This document shows, in pieces, positions 35,211 to 37,455 of a stretch of DNA of 64,000 nucleotides. The position numbers and the translations under genes were made by a program. The stretch is from Chloroflexota bacterium (GTDB lineage: Bacteria; Chloroflexota; Limnocylindria; Limnocylindrales; CSP1-4): contig JAJZRQ010000003.1 of NCBI GenBank assembly GCA_021802585.1, positions 2,048-66,047 on the forward strand. Reading direction: 5' to 3'. The notes below the pieces were generated by a model. The model made no database searches, had not been told where the DNA came from, and worked only from the letters and a program-made list of their open reading frames with translations. Numbering within the stretch: position 1 is the first letter of the stretch; each line of letters begins with the position of its first letter.

Positions 35211-36139
35211 AGGAGGATGGCCCCCGACACGAAGACGTTGAGGAGGGCGAGGGGGATGAGGACGGCCCAGGCGACGAGGACGAAGGTCGCGATCCGGACG
35301 CGCGCGAGCAGGTGGCCGGCGGCGAGGATCGCGAGGAGGACCGCCCCCGTCTTCGCGATCATCCATGCCGGGCCGGGCAGGATCGGGCCCCACCAGCCGC
35401 CGAGGAACCCGGCAGCTCCCATCGCGGCGACCGCGACCAGCATGGCCGAGCGGGCAATCGTCCAGAGGAGCCGGGCGACCCCGCTGTCCTCCACCGAGGT
35501 GCCGCCCGCCACGTCGCTCGCGTCGCTGAGGTTGAGCGGCCCCCAGAAGCTGACCCCCACCCCGACGACGAGGTAGAGCGGCAGGCCGAGCGGCTGTCGG
35601 AGCACGTTCCAGGCGGGTTCCTGGGCCCGCACGATGTCGACGATGGAGAGCGACTCGGCCGGCAGCGCGGTGGCCAGCATCGCCAGGAGGAACGGGATCT
35701 GGAAGGACAGGGCGGCCGCCCCGTACCGGTACGCGCCATGGAGTGCGAATGGCGAGTTCGGCGACCAGCCGTGGAGGAACACCGCGATCATGACGAAGGC
35801 GATCGCGGCGGAGAAGGCGACGAAGCCAGTCGACGGATCAGCGATGACGAGATCGGGGCCAAGCGGGACGAGCGCGAGGGCGAAGGCCGCGAGGCCGAAG
35901 AAGAGCGCCGGGGCGACCGCCCAGCCGGCGCCGTCGGGGCGCTCCGTCGTGCGACGCTGCTGGACGAGGAGCGCGGCGGCCGCTGCGAGCGGGACGACGA
36001 GGAGCCGCCGCCACGAGCCGACCGCACCGGCCACGAGCGCGGCGGCGAACCGGTCGAGGACTGCCACGAGGTACACGCCTGCCACGAGCGCGGCGGCGGT
36101 CGCGAGCAGGGCGACCTCCGCGCCGACGTACGGCCTCAC
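35207..36139 (-). CDS. nuoH: Divergent NuoH-like subunit
   Basis: HGWSPNSPFALHGAYRYGAAALSFQIPFLL and GGWWGPILPGP align with NuoH GWsSNskYallGalRaaAQ.iSYEv and fGGW.gP. The conserved acidic loop is altered (see findings). The GTG at 36139 overlaps the upstream stop. Confidence 0.75.
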   Translation of the reverse strand: MRPYVGAEVALLATAAALVAGVYLVAVLDRFAAALVAGAVGSWRRLLVVPLAAAAALLVQQRRTTERPDGAGWAVAPALFFGLAAFALALVPLGPDLVIADPSTGFVAFSAAIAFVMIAVFLHGWSPNSPFALHGAYRYGAAALSFQIPFLLAMLATALPAESLSIVDIVRAQEPAWNVLRQPLGLPLYLVVGVGVSFWGPLNLSDASDVAGGTSVEDSGVARLLWTIARSAMLVAVAAMGAAGFLGGWWGPILPGPAWMIAKTGAVLLAILAAGHLLARVRIATFVLVAWAVLIPLALLNVFVSGAILL

Positions 36140-37455
36140 GCCGCGGCCTCGGGGCGGGCCCGGCCTCGGGCGAGGGGCCCCTCCTCGAGATCGAGGTCGA
36201 GGCTCACGATCGTCGCGACGACGTCGCCCCACTCGTGCTCGCGGAGGAGGGACGGGAGCACCGTGAAGAGGCGCTCACTCGCCGAGCTCTCCGCCTCGAG
36301 GCGACCACGCGGCGTCTCGACGCGACCCGTGGCCGTCGCGGCACGGGCGCCCGCGCGCGCCGCGAGGTCCAGCGACTGGACGGCCTCGCCGAGGCGGAGC
36401 CGCAGCCGCGCGGCGGCATCGCCACCCGCGTCGACGAGCGGAGCGAAGCCGAGGTCGCGGTATGCCGGATCCTCCAGACGGAGGTCCTCCCGCAGGCCGG
36501 AAGCCCGGGCGACTGGTCCGGCGCCGAGCCCGGCGACGGCTTCCGGCGGCACAGCCCCGACGCCTCGAAGGGACCACCGCAGGACCTGGGTCGCCGAGAT
36601 GATCGTGGCCAGGCGGCGGACGAGCGCCCCGTCGCCCGCCCGGAGGTTGGCCGCGATCCGGAGCGCGCGGAGCGCCAGCGCCTCGAGCCCGGCCGCGAGG
36701 AGCGCCTCGGCCACCGAGCGCAGGTGGGCGCGGGCCCGGGCGAGCTCGAGGTCAGCGATCGCGACCCGCTCGCCGAGCGCGCGGAGGAACGGGTCGGCCT
36801 CTGGAGAAGGCGCGGCTGCGGTGGCGTTCGCCAGGAGGTTCGCGACCTCGACCTCGAGCACGAGGTCACCGGCCAGGCGGGCGTCGACGACGAGGCCCGC
36901 CGGGAACCGGGGGAAGAGCGGGCCGACCGCCACCGGAAGCACGTCGAGGCGGAGCCCATCCGGGTCCGGCCCGAGCTCGGCCATCGGTCGGCCATACGGG
37001 ACGCCTCCCGTCATCCCGCTCCCGCCCTGGCCGTACGGGCCGACCCCGCGCCACGGCGCGGGGTCGACGTCGGGCAAGATCGGCGGCTCGGAGCCACGGC
37101 GACCGACGAGGATGTCGCGGTAGGCGGCGACGCACGCAGCGACGGGGTCGCCGTCGACGGGGATCGCGTCGTCGAATCCTTCCGGTCGCCCGAGACCGGC
37201 CGCTCCGGCCGACCAGAGGACGGTCGCCCGCGGGTGGGCCATCGCGTCATGCACGCGGGCGACCGCCATCTCCATCTCCGCGGGCACCAACCCGCCGACG
37301 AGCAGGACGGAGGCCGGCCGCGGGGTGTCGACGAGGCGGATCTCCGGTCGGAGGCGGAGATCCCGGATCAGCGAGCGCGTCCCGGGGCCGGCCACGGCGA
37401 ACACGGGGACGGGCGCGCCCGTGGCGACGCGGGCGAGGAGAGCCGTCAGGCCCAT
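36136..37455 (-). CDS. Single ORF fusing a Cys-poor NuoB-like domain to a NuoD-like (49-kDa/NiFe large-subunit-like) domain
   Basis: The N-terminal VDTPRPASVLLVGGLVPAEM resembles the NuoB [15 protein letters not shown].km segment. The C-terminal part contains VETPRGRLEAE (compare NuoD/hydrogenase EAPRGElg) and ends GDVVATIVSLDLDLEE (compare NuoD aDvvAiiGSiDiVmGEvDR). There is only one Cys in the whole NuoB-like part. Confidence 0.7.
   Translation of the reverse strand: MGLTALLARVATGAPVPVFAVAGPGTRSLIRDLRLRPEIRLVDTPRPASVLLVGGLVPAEMEMAVARVHDAMAHPRATVLWSAGAAGLGRPEGFDDAIPVDGDPVAACVAAYRDILVGRRGSEPPILPDVDPAPWRGVGPYGQGGSGMTGGVPYGRPMAELGPDPDGLRLDVLPVAVGPLFPRFPAGLVVDARLAGDLVLEVEVANLLANATAAAPSPEADPFLRALGERVAIADLELARARAHLRSVAEALLAAGLEALALRALRIAANLRAGDGALVRRLATIISATQVLRWSLRGVGAVPPEAVAGLGAGPVARASGLREDLRLEDPAYRDLGFAPLVDAGGDAAARLRLRLGEAVQSLDLAARAGARAATATGRVETPRGRLEAESSASERLFTVLPSLLREHEWGDVVATIVSLDLDLEEGPLARGRARPEAAA

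What the first reader, a model, noticed from the sequence alone, without database searches (positions are those of the whole stretch)
36136..37455. Single 439-aa ORF fusing a cysteine-poor NuoB-like domain to a truncated NuoD-like domain
The first ~170 residues contain the NuoB-like strand VDTPRPASVLLVGGLVPAEM but only one Cys (in DPVAACVAAY). Canonical NuoB/hydrogenase small-subunit-like proteins use four Cys (CC...C...C) to bind the terminal [4Fe-4S] cluster N2. The remainder carries NuoD/NiFe-large-subunit landmarks (GVGPYGQGGSGM..., VETPRGRLEAE, C-terminal GDVVATIVSLDLDLEE). At roughly 270 residues it is much shorter than a ~400-aa NuoD, and it has no NiFe CxxC motifs. A B-D fusion that skips NuoC, and lacks both the cluster and probably part of the quinone pocket, is an unusual architecture for the heart of the coupling site.
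Basis: partly seen in the sequence, partly recalled or inferred. Interest (0 to 1): 0.75.

Follow-up and report, generated by a model that had tools for sequence, protein, structure and literature searches.

The report
Cofactor-less complex I cap, copper-linked
The ORF is a real, widely conserved fusion of cluster-less NuoB-like and shrunken NuoD-like domains. It caps a complete complex-I-type membrane arm that has no redox cofactor sites and sits beside copper-handling genes in several phyla, so it is probably a proton-driven copper transporter and not a respiratory enzyme.

Summary
Window 36136-37455 (minus strand) encodes a 439-aa protein. Residues 1-125 have a NuoB fold and residues 160-439 have a truncated NuoD fold. 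A Gly/Met-rich loop (132-158) joins the two domains.

All four N2-cluster cysteines are missing, and so are the quinone-site His38 and Tyr87 equivalents. No Cys is conserved in 313 full-length homologs, so this is not a frameshift.

The gene sits in a strictly syntenic 9-gene operon: YHS/TRASH, nuoA, BD, nuoH, J, K, L, M, N. There is no nuoC, E, F, G or I. The operon occurs in Chloroflexota, Actinomycetota, Gemmatimonadota and Proteobacteria.

The L/M/N-like subunits keep conserved charged residues; the proton-pumping set was checked against a solved structure only for NuoM. The central channel subunits (NuoA/J/K) carry invariant Met substitutions around their carboxylates.

The operon always carries a cytoplasmic copper-type binder. 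This is YHS in most lineages and a Csp3-like protein in two Halomonadaceae genomes. It repeatedly lies inside copper-resistance clusters (copABCD, copRS, cueR, P1B-ATPase, multicopper oxidase).

Best reading: a redox-dead, complex-I-derived, proton-motive-force-driven Cu(I) transporter. The copper link is well supported by context. The transport mechanism is inferred.

The parts
37847..38005 (-). 52-aa YHS/TRASH-domain protein, first gene of the operon. It has an invariant C13-x22-C36-x3-C40 pattern and a DPVCxM motif. It has no hydrophobic segment, so it is cytoplasmic.
   Evidence: ORF with a GGAGGAG Shine-Dalgarno sequence. Pfam YHS is listed on the called orthologs. The gene lies directly upstream of nuoA in every locus whose upstream flank is held except Halomonas L087. 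Cys conservation is from 76 sequences.
37446..37808 (-). NuoA-like subunit (120 aa). F72-D73-M74-E75-M76 is invariant where canonical NdhC has FDVET. M79, M97, M99, H53 and H59 are also conserved.
   Evidence: Pfam PF00507, E 8e-29. Alignment to NdhC chains. Family conservation.
36136..37455 (-). The finding: a 439-aa fusion of a NuoB-like and a truncated NuoD-like domain, with no cofactor ligands.
37081..37455 (-). NuoB-like flavodoxin-fold domain (aa 1-125). The N2 Cys ligands are replaced by V18, F19 and G84. The H69-D70...P75-R76 motif corresponds to the canonical YDQMPEPK motif.
   Evidence: PDB profile search, E 2.7e-10. hhalign against Nqo6. AlphaFold model plus Foldseek.
36982..37062 (-). 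Family-specific Gly/Met-rich loop (aa 132-158): W-R-G-V-G-P-Y-G-Q-G-G-S-G-M-T-G-G-V-P-Y-G-R-P-M. M148 is present in 309 of 313 members. The proteobacterial branches add further Met and His.
   Evidence: pLDDT below 50 in the monomer model. Conservation. Roseivivax variant.
36139..36978 (-). Truncated NuoD-like domain (aa 160-439). It keeps the N-terminal beta-sheet (GPxFPxxPxG in place of GPQHPSTHG), the helical core with the GPVARAxG...D.R...Y motif, and the C-terminal SLD motif. About 120 residues are deleted relative to NuoD, and there is no CxxC motif.
35207..36139 (-). NuoH-like subunit (310 aa, GTG start overlapping the BD stop). The TM5-6 loop has diverged from PFDxPEAExEL..G...EYSG to PLNLPDGxDLAGGTxAExSG. 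E. coli E157 corresponds to Q/E/G in the family, and E. coli E241 corresponds to R230.
   Evidence: Pfam PF00146. Alignment to E. coli NuoH. Family columns.
34641..35210 (-). NuoJ-like subunit (189 aa) with a Met-rich TM3, LMMAGEMLIMAIVMVMFMMNP. Nqo10 Tyr59 is replaced by invariant M65, and E68 is a new invariant residue. Thirteen Met are conserved.
   Evidence: Pfam PF00499. Alignments to four solved NuoJ/NdhG chains. Conservation.
34339..34644 (-). NuoK-like subunit (101 aa). Both channel glutamates (E35, E73) are invariant. They are flanked by conserved M29, M31, M32 and M37, by M70, and by M74, which is Met in 35 of 63 members and Ala in 27.
   Evidence: Pfam PF00420. Alignments. Conservation.
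32417..34342 (-). NuoL-like antiporter-type subunit (641 aa).
   Evidence: NCBIfam NF005141, E 9e-93. Conserved E127, K205, K372 and E373. These were not mapped to canonical numbering.
30863..32362 (-). NuoM-like subunit (499 aa). It keeps K225, K256, H313 and E408. The TM5 Glu is Asp141.
   Evidence: TIGR01972 scores 462 bits against a cut-off of 264. Alignment to Paracoccus Nqo13. Conservation.
29356..30789 (-). NuoN-like subunit (477 aa from the ATG used by the gene call in the near-identical contig).
   Evidence: TIGR01770 scores 331.8 bits against a cut-off of 332.6. Gene call in L004. Conserved K220, K250 and K391.

Best explanation
The 439-aa protein is the vestigial Q-module of a complex-I-derived machine. 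It is a NuoB-like domain fused, through a conserved Gly/Met-rich loop, to a cut-down NuoD-like domain. It has lost the N2 [4Fe-4S] ligands, the quinone ligands, and the partner subunits NuoC and NuoI.

It most likely sits as a cytoplasmic cap on NuoH/NuoA of a full, functional complex-I-type membrane arm (A, H, J, K, L, M, N). No electron wire exists, so the assembly cannot be a redox pump.

The proposal is that it works like an Mrp-type secondary transporter. Protons would flow inward through the NuoL/M/N-like modules, and that flow would drive a substrate through the former quinone chamber and E-channel (NuoH/A/J/K).

The substrate is most likely Cu(I). A small cytoplasmic copper-binding protein would deliver it: the YHS/TRASH protein here, or a Csp3-like protein in some Halomonadaceae. 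It would be received at the BD cap, with the loop Met148, His69 and His244 as candidate ligands. It would then pass along the Met/Glu/Asp-lined channel in NuoA, NuoJ and NuoK.

Shown:
- The folds of both domains.
- The loss of cofactor ligands.
- Operon content and synteny.
- Conserved charged residues in L/M/N, mapped to canonical pumping positions for NuoM only.
- The Met substitutions.
- The copper gene context.

Inferred:
- Physical assembly of the complex.
- Secondary-transport energetics.
- Copper as the substrate.
- Direction of transport. Export is favoured by the resistance-gene context.
For: (1) Domain identity and cofactor loss.

(2) The fusion is conserved. 656 and 792 hits were returned in two searches, and the listed hits are mostly 410-446 aa. 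There are 265 representative clusters at E<=1e-30. 179 species genomes carry it, in Chloroflexota, Actinomycetota and Gemmatimonadota, with single MAGs labelled Cyanobacteriota and Myxococcales. It also occurs in Gamma- and Alphaproteobacteria.

(3) Synteny. YHS-A-BD-H-J-K-L-M-N is co-linear in about 80 loci, with no C, E, F, G or I gene. Start and stop codons overlap between adjacent genes.

(4) The membrane arm is under strong selection. NuoK is 59-96% identical across these loci, against 41-61% for BD. The NuoK glutamates, the NuoA Asp/Glu pair and the NuoM Lys/Glu set are conserved at canonical positions. NuoL and NuoN have conserved Lys/Glu that were not mapped.

(5) Met substitutions sit exactly around the E-channel carboxylates:
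- NuoA FDMEM against canonical FDVET.
- NuoJ Tyr59 to Met65, plus a new Glu68 and 13 conserved Met.
- NuoK TVMAVEM against canonical VAAAEA.

(6) Copper link:
- The obligatory YHS/TRASH gene.
- In two Halomonadaceae genomes its position is taken by a Cys-rich Csp-family protein with no signal peptide; the L090 copy has 19 Cys.
- 24 of 57 independent loci with at least 5 kb of flank carry copper-type neighbours: MCO 10, P1B-ATPase 7, RND 5, CopB 3, Csp 3.
- On a Halomonas plasmid the operon lies directly after copCD-azurin-copRS-copA-copB.
- On a Roseivivax plasmid it lies beside cueR, a P1B-ATPase, an HMA protein and an MCO.
- The window itself carries an MCO, a cupredoxin, an HMA protein, a P1B-ATPase and three YHS ORFs.

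(7) Independent expression evidence. Eddie et al. 2021 (PMC8233155) report a 'nuoADHJKL + hypothetical' cassette inside the Marinobacter atlanticus copper-resistance cluster. It is co-expressed with the cop genes.
Against: - No biochemical data exist for any member.
- Copper specificity rests on gene context and on Met/His patterns. Met-rich helices also occur in ordinary membrane proteins.
- 33 of the 57 loci with adequate flanks show no copper neighbour.
- Some loci sit next to respiratory genes instead: a caa3 oxidase operon in Billgrantia, and FdhA plus alternative complex III in Stutzerimonas.
- YHS/TRASH domains can bind zinc structurally.
- I could not inspect model coordinates. The proximity of H69, H244 and M148 to each other or to NuoH is therefore untested.
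- Homology of the Marinobacter atlanticus cassette to this family was not verified. That cassette reportedly has only one antiporter-like subunit.
- Direction of transport is unknown.
Confidence: 0.5

Rival explanations
1. A generic Mrp-like monovalent cation (Na+/K+)/H+ antiporter built from the complex I membrane arm. BD and YHS would be purely structural (zinc-ribbon) subunits, and the copper gene neighbourhood would reflect co-location on stress or resistance islands.
For: The architecture parallels Mrp, with NuoL/M/N/K/J homologs and no redox module. Many carriers are halophiles. 33 of 57 loci show no copper neighbour. The YHS protein also matches the zinc-binding L24e fold.
Against: Copper-specific genes (copA/B/C/D, cueR, a Csp3-like protein, cupredoxins) flank the operon in five bacterial lineages. 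A Csp3-like copper storage protein replaces YHS. Invariant Met substitutions surround the channel carboxylates. Soft ligands are not expected for Na+ or K+.
Confidence: 0.15
2. Still a redox-driven pump. Electrons would enter from a separately encoded or unrecognised partner: copper redox chemistry via the YHS/Csp protein, a multicopper oxidase, cytochrome c, a formate dehydrogenase or quinol. The membrane arm would pump protons outward. Eddie et al. speculated along these lines.
For: In some genomes the operon is adjacent to a caa3 oxidase operon, to FdhA plus alternative complex III, and to c-type cytochromes. Eddie et al. 2021 suggest energy might derive from copper redox reactions. The NuoH subunit and the tunnel-forming subunits are retained.
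Against: No conserved Cys is present, and no His cluster is conserved, in BD across 313 members. NuoI and NuoC are absent. The quinone His/Tyr ligands are absent. The respiratory neighbours are not conserved between loci. YHS has only three Cys and is replaced by a storage-type protein in other lineages.
Confidence: 0.12
3. The same machine runs in the opposite biological role. It would take up or distribute copper, feeding cytoplasmic storage (Csp3) or cuproenzyme assembly, or it would act as a copper sensor, and would not serve detoxifying export.
For: It is paired with a cytosolic Csp3-type storage protein. It is adjacent to SCO1, CtaG and a caa3 oxidase in Billgrantia, and to ccm genes in the near-identical contig.
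Against: Most conserved neighbours are resistance or efflux determinants: CopA/CopB, P1B-ATPases, RND pumps, CopRS and CueR. An inward proton gradient would more naturally power export of a cation.
Confidence: 0.13
4. Artefact or decay: a frameshift that merged nuoB and nuoD, or a degenerating pseudo-operon.
For: High-GC DNA yields long spurious ORFs. The same stretch has a 415-aa antisense ORF and an 809-aa upstream extension.
Against: Codon-position GC fits this frame only. 313 full-length homologs show the same architecture at 34-66% identity. Conserved motifs are spread over the whole length. The model is confident. The operon shows tight translational coupling.
Confidence: 0.02

Closest known systems
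Respiratory complex I / NDH-1 (NuoA-N; Nqo6 + Nqo4 Q-module)
   Same: All seven membrane subunits are complex-I type. NuoM passes its NCBIfam cut-off and NuoN misses its own by under 1 bit. The NuoK glutamates, the NuoA Asp/Glu pair and the NuoM Lys/Glu set are conserved. The cap has NuoB and NuoD folds. The best sequence matches of the D domain, NuoA and NuoK are to the cyanobacterial/chloroplast NDH-1 type.
   Different: There is no NuoC, E, F, G or I and no Fe-S ligand. The quinone His/Tyr are absent. NuoD lacks about 120 residues. B and D are fused directly. Met replaces canonical residues around the E-channel carboxylates. The NuoH TM5-6 coupling loop is rewritten. An extra YHS subunit gene is present.
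Mrp (Mnh/Pha) multisubunit cation/proton antiporter
   Same: A redox-independent assembly of NuoL/M/N-like antiporter modules with NuoK/NuoJ-like small subunits, driven by the proton gradient. This is the proposed working principle (Mrp mechanism: PMC7419157, listed).
   Different: Mrp has no NuoH, NuoA, NuoB-like or NuoD-like subunit. This system has no MrpE/F/G-type genes. The presumed substrate differs (Cu(I) against Na+/K+). The closest sequence families are Nuo, not Mrp.
[quoted passage not shown]
   Same: The large-subunit homolog has no metal-site cysteines, and the function is unknown (PMC10284858 and PMC4758237).
   Different: Ehr complexes group with 4f hydrogenases. From my memory of Marreiros et al. 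2013 (not read here), they keep separate small-subunit, NuoC-like and ferredoxin-like subunits. Here the membrane arm is Nuo-type with three antiporter modules, the B-like domain has lost its cluster, and C and I are absent.
NuoCD and NuoBCD fusion proteins of canonical complex I (NCBIfam NF009808)
   Same: Q-module subunits are fused into one chain.
   Different: Those fusions keep NuoC, all cluster ligands and the quinone ligands. Here NF009808 scores 33 bits against a cut-off of 1156, and only the D segment matches.
Marinobacter atlanticus 'nuoADHJKL + hypothetical' cassette inside the copper-resistance cluster (Eddie et al. 2021, PMC8233155)
   Same: A complex-I-like cassette without an N-module. 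It is embedded in, and co-expressed with, copper resistance genes. The function is unknown.
   Different: It is reported to have only one, short antiporter-like subunit and a separate hypothetical gene next to the D-like gene. Sequence homology to this family was not checked here.
CusA-type RND and P1B-type (CopA) Cu(I) exporters
   Same: The analogy is functional only. CusA couples proton influx to the movement of Cu(I) along methionine clusters and pairs. Both systems accept Cu(I) from small chaperones. This is established knowledge and was not tested here.
   Different: There is no sequence or fold relationship.

Membership tests
NuoB / PSST / Nqo6 (complex I 20-kDa subunit) | Flavodoxin-like fold homologous to the [NiFe]-hydrogenase small subunit | tested here: met
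   The profile of aa 1-130 hits 42 NuoB-family chains, with best E 2.7e-10. All top 50 Foldseek hits of the domain model are NuoB family, TM 0.54-0.66.
NuoB / PSST / Nqo6 (complex I 20-kDa subunit) | Four Cys (CC...C...C) ligating the [4Fe-4S] cluster N2 | tested here: not met
   C45, C46 and C111 of Nqo6 align to V18, F19 and G84 (the Nqo6 sequence was recalled from memory). The fourth ligand lies beyond the aligned region, and the protein has only one Cys, which is not conserved. No Cys column is conserved in 313 members.
NuoB / PSST / Nqo6 (complex I 20-kDa subunit) | Reaches the curated family score | tested here: not met
   NCBIfam NF005012 scores 16.4 bits against a cut-off of 116. The Pfam NuoB model gives no hit.
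NuoD / 49-kDa / Nqo4 | [NiFe]-hydrogenase large-subunit-type fold; Pfam PF00346 above the gathering score | tested here: met
   PF00346 scores 44.2 bits against 24, but only over aa 280-374. All top 50 Foldseek hits are NuoD family, E about 3e-9, TM 0.41-0.49 on the query.
NuoD / 49-kDa / Nqo4 | Quinone head-group ligands His38 and Tyr87 (Thermus numbering) | tested here: not met
   GPQHPSTHG aligns to GPLFPRFPAG, so H34 maps to F181 and H38 maps to P185 (308 of 313). The Tyr87 segment is deleted or unalignable. No Tyr in residues 205-230 is invariant or nearly invariant in the 25-sequence alignment.
NuoD / 49-kDa / Nqo4 | Full-length domain of about 380-410 aa, reaching the equivalog score | tested here: not met
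   The D part is about 280 aa. Three gaps of roughly 33, 38 and 55 residues appear against NdhH. NF004739 scores 36 bits against a cut-off of 360.
Respiratory complex I / NDH-1 as a system | Minimal 11 core subunits, including NuoC and NuoI with clusters N6a/N6b | tested here: not met
   The operon holds only YHS, A, BD, H, J, K, L, M and N in about 80 loci. Genes elsewhere in the genomes were not searched.
Respiratory complex I / NDH-1 as a system | Complex-I-type membrane arm (A, H, J, K, L, M, N) with conserved channel residues | tested here: met
   Pfam and NCBIfam assignments. NuoK E35/E73, NuoA D73/E75, and NuoM K225/K256/E408 are conserved. NuoL and NuoN residues were not mapped.
Mrp-type cation/proton antiporter | MrpA-G gene set (MrpA with its C-terminal MrpB-like extension, MrpE/F/G) | tested here: not met
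   The best families are Nuo equivalogs. Mrp models score far below their cut-offs, and no extra small membrane genes are present.
Mrp-type cation/proton antiporter | Redox-independent, proton-motive-force-driven ion exchange | not testable with these tools
   Inferred from the absence of cofactor sites. It needs transport assays.
NuoBCD fusion (NF009808) | B, C and D domains in one chain, with all ligands | tested here: not met
   33.3 bits against a cut-off of 1156, with only positions 587-677 matched. No Complex1_30kDa (NuoC) hit.
Ehr / group 4 hydrogenase-related complexes | Large-subunit homolog without NiFe CxxC motifs, grouping with group 4 hydrogenases | tested here: inconclusive
   The CxxC motifs are absent. 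The nearest solved relatives are NdhH/NuoD and not Mbh/Hyc large subunits. No phylogeny was made.
YHS/TRASH metal-binding domain (the upstream gene) | C-x19-22-C-x3-C signature and a Pfam YHS hit | tested here: met
   C13-x22-C36-x3-C40 is conserved in 76 sequences. PF04945 is listed on the called orthologs.

The most novel reading that the evidence does not exclude
This is the first complex-I-derived heavy-metal transporter. A full complex I membrane arm would run in reverse as a secondary transporter, using several protons per cycle to expel Cu(I). A cytoplasmic YHS or Csp3-type protein would hand the Cu(I) to a cofactor-less NuoB-NuoD cap. The metal would travel through the former quinone chamber and a methionine-lined E-channel. 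If true, evolution has re-used the complex I coupling machinery for a non-redox substrate. That would provide a natural 'uncoupled' model for studying how events at the Q-site drive the antiporter modules.
Probability: 0.4. Interest if true: 0.92.

Novelty: new variant of a known kind. Interest (0 to 1): 0.8.

Why it matters
How chemistry at the NuoB/NuoD/NuoH junction drives the distant antiporter-like subunits is the central open question for complex I. This family is a natural experiment on that question. The whole membrane arm is kept under strong selection. Every redox cofactor site, NuoC, NuoI and the quinone ligands are gone. The E-channel is re-lined with methionines.

If the family is a proton-driven Cu(I) transporter, two things follow. 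It adds a new class to bacterial copper homeostasis, alongside P1B-ATPases, RND pumps and the Cop/Pco systems. It also shows that the complex I coupling mechanism can be driven by ion binding and not only by quinone reduction, which would link complex I and Mrp mechanistically.

The family is common: at least 179 species genomes and hundreds of metagenomic clusters. It is plasmid-borne in some halophiles and present in culturable Halomonadaceae, so it can be tested directly. Current annotation reads 'hypothetical protein' or 'NADH-quinone oxidoreductase subunit D-related protein', with the neighbours named as ordinary Nuo subunits. That will mislead metabolic reconstructions into counting a respiratory complex I.

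Tried and rejected
- Frameshift or two-gene explanation: rejected by the ortholog architecture and by codon statistics.
- Some database representatives start at M148 or M158, or cover only residues 1-200. I read these as truncated contigs or miscalled starts and did not follow them up. A genuinely shorter 302-aa form does exist in Roseivivax.
- Literature searches found no description of this family: Ehr complexes, 'NuoBD', YHS with nuoA, complex I in Limnocylindria, and Csp3 with Nuo. 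The only relevant paper is Eddie et al. 2021.
- Spero et al. 2015 and Degli Esposti 2015 mention CD and BCD fusions and partial operons, but not this one.
- A CopY operator (TACAnnTGTA) was searched for in the window. There were no matches, and none were expected by chance.
- Look-up of the Marinobacter nanhaiticus homolog context failed; the protein is not on record. The link to the Marinobacter atlanticus cassette therefore stays unverified.
- A second nuo set in the window was searched for. Only L/M/N cross-hits were found.
- Overall Met content alone was judged uninformative, because canonical NuoK and NuoJ are also Met-rich. Only position-specific substitutions were used.

Full report
**1. 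The observation**

The ORF is on the minus strand, with its ATG at 37455 and its stop at 36136-36138. It encodes 439 aa with a single Cys, C108. In this 75% G+C window long ORFs arise by chance; the same stretch has a 415-aa antisense ORF and an 809-aa upstream extension. Only the reported frame shows a coding signature, with GC1/2/3 of 0.845/0.564/0.90. The same-frame extension upstream of the ATG drops to a GC3 of 0.62. The ATG overlaps the stop of the upstream nuoA-like gene by 10 nt. The stop overlaps the GTG of the nuoH-like gene in a GTGA overlap.

**2. Domain identity**

- Pfam finds only Complex1_49kDa, over aa 280-374 (44.2 bits, cut-off 24). NCBIfam adds weak NuoB hits at aa 43-86.
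- A profile of 25 homologs hits NdhH/Nqo4/49-kDa chains (E 1.7e-10). It also hits PSST/NuoB chains separately.
- A profile of the N-terminal 130 residues alone hits 42 NuoB-family chains, down to E 2.7e-10. The segment [33 protein letters not shown] aligns to DTPRPASVLLVGGLVPAEMEMAVARVHDAMAHPR.
- The AlphaFold2 model of the whole protein has pLDDT 85.5 and pTM 0.85. Only residues 132-158 and the last four residues are disordered. All top 50 Foldseek PDB hits are NuoD, 49-kDa, NdhH or HycE chains.
- The N-terminal domain modelled alone has pLDDT 92.6. All its top 50 hits are NuoB, PSST, NdhK, HycG or MbhJ chains.

**3. Missing cofactor and substrate ligands**

hhalign against Thermus Nqo6 (sequence recalled from memory) places C45 and C46 on V18 and F19, and C111 on G84. 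The alignment ends before the fourth ligand. The protein's single Cys (C108) lies in that stretch and is not conserved.

HMMER and hhalign against NdhH and Nqo4 align GP(Q/H)HPS(T/M)HG with GPLFPRFPAG. The equivalents of H34 and H38 are therefore F181 and P185. The Tyr87 segment falls in a deleted, low-confidence stretch.

Across 313 full-length family members at 34-66% identity to the window protein, no Cys column is conserved. P185 is present in 308 of 313.

The D-like part is about 280 aa. Three gaps against NdhH, of roughly 33, 38 and 55 residues, account for the difference.

**4. Not a frameshift, and not rare**

- Two searches of the 5.8-billion-protein set returned 656 and 792 hits. The listed hits are mostly 410-446 aa.
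- An exhaustive profile search of 1.84 billion representatives found 265 clusters at E<=1e-30.
- A scan of one genome per GTDB species confirmed 179 loci. They come from Chloroflexota (Limnocylindria, Tepidiformales, Thermomicrobiales), Actinomycetota (Acidimicrobiia, Thermoleophilia, Gaiellales, Nitriliruptoraceae) and Gemmatimonadota. There is one MAG each labelled Cyanobacteriota and Myxococcales, and the isolate Halomonas korlensis.
- A gammaproteobacterial branch covers many cultured Halomonadaceae, Stutzerimonas stutzeri and Marinobacter nanhaiticus. NCBI names these proteins 'NADH-quinone oxidoreductase subunit D-related protein' or 'hypothetical protein'.
- Plasmid copies exist in Halomonas sp. 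KO116 and Vreelandella. A shorter 302-aa form occurs in Roseivivax, and partial matches in other Alphaproteobacteria (Acuticoccus, Martelella) were not examined.

The window protein differs by two residues from P0001 of assembly GCA_027399805.1, so the window comes from a very close relative.

**5. The operon**

Pfam and NCBIfam assign the neighbours as NuoA, NuoH, NuoJ, NuoK, NuoL, NuoM and NuoN. A 52-aa YHS/TRASH gene with a strong Shine-Dalgarno sequence lies upstream.

tblastn with the nine window proteins against 87 loci shows the order YHS-A-BD-H-J-K-L-M-N, co-linear and uninterrupted in essentially every locus. No second set of nuo genes is present, and there is no room for nuoC, E, F, G or I (gene calls). 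Most junctions overlap by 4 nt.

Membrane subunits are more conserved than BD. NuoK is 59-96% identical to the window protein across the loci, against 41-61% for BD.

**6. State of the membrane arm**

- NuoK E35 and E73, and NuoA D73 and E75, are invariant.
- NuoM keeps K225, K256, H313 and E408, aligned to Paracoccus Nqo13. Its TM5 Glu is a conserved Asp.
- NuoL and NuoN have conserved Glu and Lys residues, but I did not map them to canonical positions.
- The proton-translocating machinery therefore looks functional.

The junction with the cap is rewritten:

- The NuoH TM5-6 loop changes from PFDxPEAExEL..G...EYSG to PLNLPDGxDLAGGTxAExSG.
- E. coli E157 corresponds to Q, E or G in the family.
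- E. coli E241 corresponds to R230.

Methionines replace canonical residues right around the E-channel carboxylates:

- NuoA FDMEM is invariant in 59 of 59 sequences, against FDVET in NdhC.
- In NuoJ TM3, Nqo10 Tyr59 becomes invariant M65. A new invariant E68 appears one helical turn later. Thirteen Met are conserved.
- NuoK reads TVMAVEM against canonical VAAAEA. M70 is conserved; the Met after E73 is present in 35 of 63 members.

NuoA also gains conserved H53 and H59 in its TM1-2 loop.

**7. The copper link**

(a) The upstream gene is a TRASH/YHS domain protein with a conserved C-x22-C-x3-C pattern and a DPVCxM motif.

(b) In Halomonas korlensis and Modicisalibacter luteus the same position holds a Cys-rich Csp-family four-helix-bundle protein with no signal peptide. 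The Modicisalibacter copy has 19 Cys in 108 aa. Pfam DUF326 gives E 7e-11 for the Halomonas protein, and TIGR04401 gives E 3e-9 for the Modicisalibacter protein, below its cut-off. One copper-type binder has been replaced by another, unrelated one.

(c) A census of 57 independent loci with at least 5 kb of flank (609 kb in total) finds copper-type neighbours in 24. These are MCO in 10, P1B-ATPase in 7, RND in 5, CopB in 3 and Csp in 3. From general knowledge of gene frequencies, roughly 0.2-0.5 of each would be expected by chance. OmpR-type two-component systems are the most recurrent flanking family.

(d) Annotated records show the same pattern:

- On the Halomonas sp. KO116 plasmid the operon follows copC-copD-azurin-copRS-copA-copB and precedes egtB-egtD.
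- In Modicisalibacter it follows copA-copB-cytochrome c-copRS.
- On the Roseivivax plasmid it abuts cueR, a P1B-ATPase, an HMA protein and an MCO.

(e) The window itself is a copper island. It carries:

- a cupredoxin, a DsbD-like protein and an HMA protein;
- three YHS ORFs and a CopY/BlaI-M56 pair;
- an MCO and two two-component systems;
- a P1B-ATPase with an HMA domain.

(f) Eddie et al. 2021 (PMC8233155) described a 'nuoADHJKL + hypothetical' cassette that interrupts the copper-resistance cluster of Marinobacter atlanticus and is co-expressed with it. They speculated about copper redox energy. I could not verify that this cassette belongs to the same family.

**8. Mechanism proposed**

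There are no Fe-S ligands, no NuoI or NuoC and no quinone ligands. The cap therefore cannot transfer electrons, and the intact antiporter modules must be energised differently.

The simplest model is Mrp-like secondary transport. Inward proton flow through L/M/N would be coupled to movement of a substrate through the NuoH/A/J/K region.

The soft-ligand substitutions, the copper-binding partner proteins and the gene context point to Cu(I), and possibly Ag(I), as the substrate. The resistance-gene neighbours point to export.

The Gly/Met-rich loop has the core W-x-G-x-G-x-x-G-[QH]-G-G-[SE]-G-M-[TM]-G-G-x-P-Y-G-R-P-M-A. M148 is present in 309 of 313 members, and the proteobacterial branches add further Met and His. 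The loop sits at the B-D junction. By homology this is where N2 and the quinone head-group lie, facing NuoH. It is the best candidate for the metal-receiving element, together with H69 (302 of 313) and H244 (291 of 313). These last steps are inference only, because I had no access to model coordinates.

**9. Alternatives**

- A generic Na+/K+ antiporter fits the architecture but not the copper-specific context or the Met pattern.
- A redox pump with an unrecognised partner is suggested by adjacency to a caa3 oxidase operon with SCO1 and CtaG and to FdhA plus alternative complex III. These neighbours are not conserved, and no cofactor site exists.
- Copper delivery or import cannot be excluded. 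It is the same machine with the opposite physiological role.

**10. Comparison and novelty**

The system is built from complex I parts. It fails the defining tests for NuoB (cluster), NuoD (quinone ligands, length) and complex I as a system (C and I missing).

It works most like Mrp but is not an Mrp. It resembles Ehr complexes only in having a metal-free large-subunit homolog.

Known BCD and CD fusions keep everything this protein has lost.

Apart from the passing note on Marinobacter, I found no description of the family.

I rate it a new variant of a known kind. There is a substantial chance that its function, a complex-I-derived metal transporter, is categorically new.

Noticed in passing
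window 27375-29339 and 38146-59527: The whole neighbourhood is a copper or metal island. It holds SHOCT, a cupredoxin (27685-28143), a DsbD_TM-like protein (28147-29034), an HMA protein (about 29031-29339), a 127-aa YHS protein (38146-38529, +), an M56 peptidase and a BlaI/CopY repressor (38712-39916, -), a multicopper oxidase (40063-41205), two OmpR/HK pairs (41222-45106), a MacB/FtsX permease, an Lgt-like gene and a P1B-ATPase with an HMA domain (56618-59527, -).
   Followed up: partly
window 54090-54242 (+): A third YHS-like ORF, 44% identical to the operon's YHS protein, lies just upstream of the Lgt-like gene.
   Followed up: no
L004 1811-8881, compared with window 38530-38711: The near-identical NCBI contig (GCA_027399805.1) carries a 7-kb insertion of cytochrome c maturation genes (ccmABCEFGH) and a ZIP transporter between the M56 gene and the 127-aa YHS gene. 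The window and an ENA contig lack this insertion.
   Followed up: no
L092 12001-12909 (Roseivivax marinus plasmid NZ_CP090153): This alphaproteobacterial variant of the cap is only 302 aa. It keeps the B-like domain, the loop (here DHGHGGEGMMGGVPYGRPMAM, richer in His and Met) and the D beta-sheet. Most of the helical D body is lost or diverged.
   Followed up: partly
L087 18097-20387; L091 20108-22380: The ergothioneine biosynthesis genes egtB and egtD directly follow nuoN in two Halomonas loci. An IS element and umuDC lie upstream in these loci, which suggests a mobile island.
   Followed up: no
L088 2449-9479 (Billgrantia sulfidoxydans chromosome): The operon lies immediately downstream, on the same strand, of a caa3-type cytochrome c oxidase operon. 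SCO1 and CtaG copper chaperones are transcribed divergently.
   Followed up: no
L089 1-9409 (Stutzerimonas stutzeri): Here the operon follows an FdhA-type formate dehydrogenase (TIGR01591, 815 bits) and a 160-aa protein with no family hit. It faces an alternative complex III cluster. No copper-binding gene lies directly upstream.
   Followed up: no
L006 16742-18165: In one Chloroflexota contig the NuoN-like gene is called as two ORFs of 279 and 195 aa. This is a likely frameshift or assembly error.
   Followed up: no
window 30863-32362 (NuoM-like), residue 141: The TM5 glutamate that is conserved in solved NuoM/ND4 subunits is a conserved aspartate in this family.
   Followed up: partly
window 20001-22000: G+C rises to 0.816 here, the highest in the window.
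   Followed up: no
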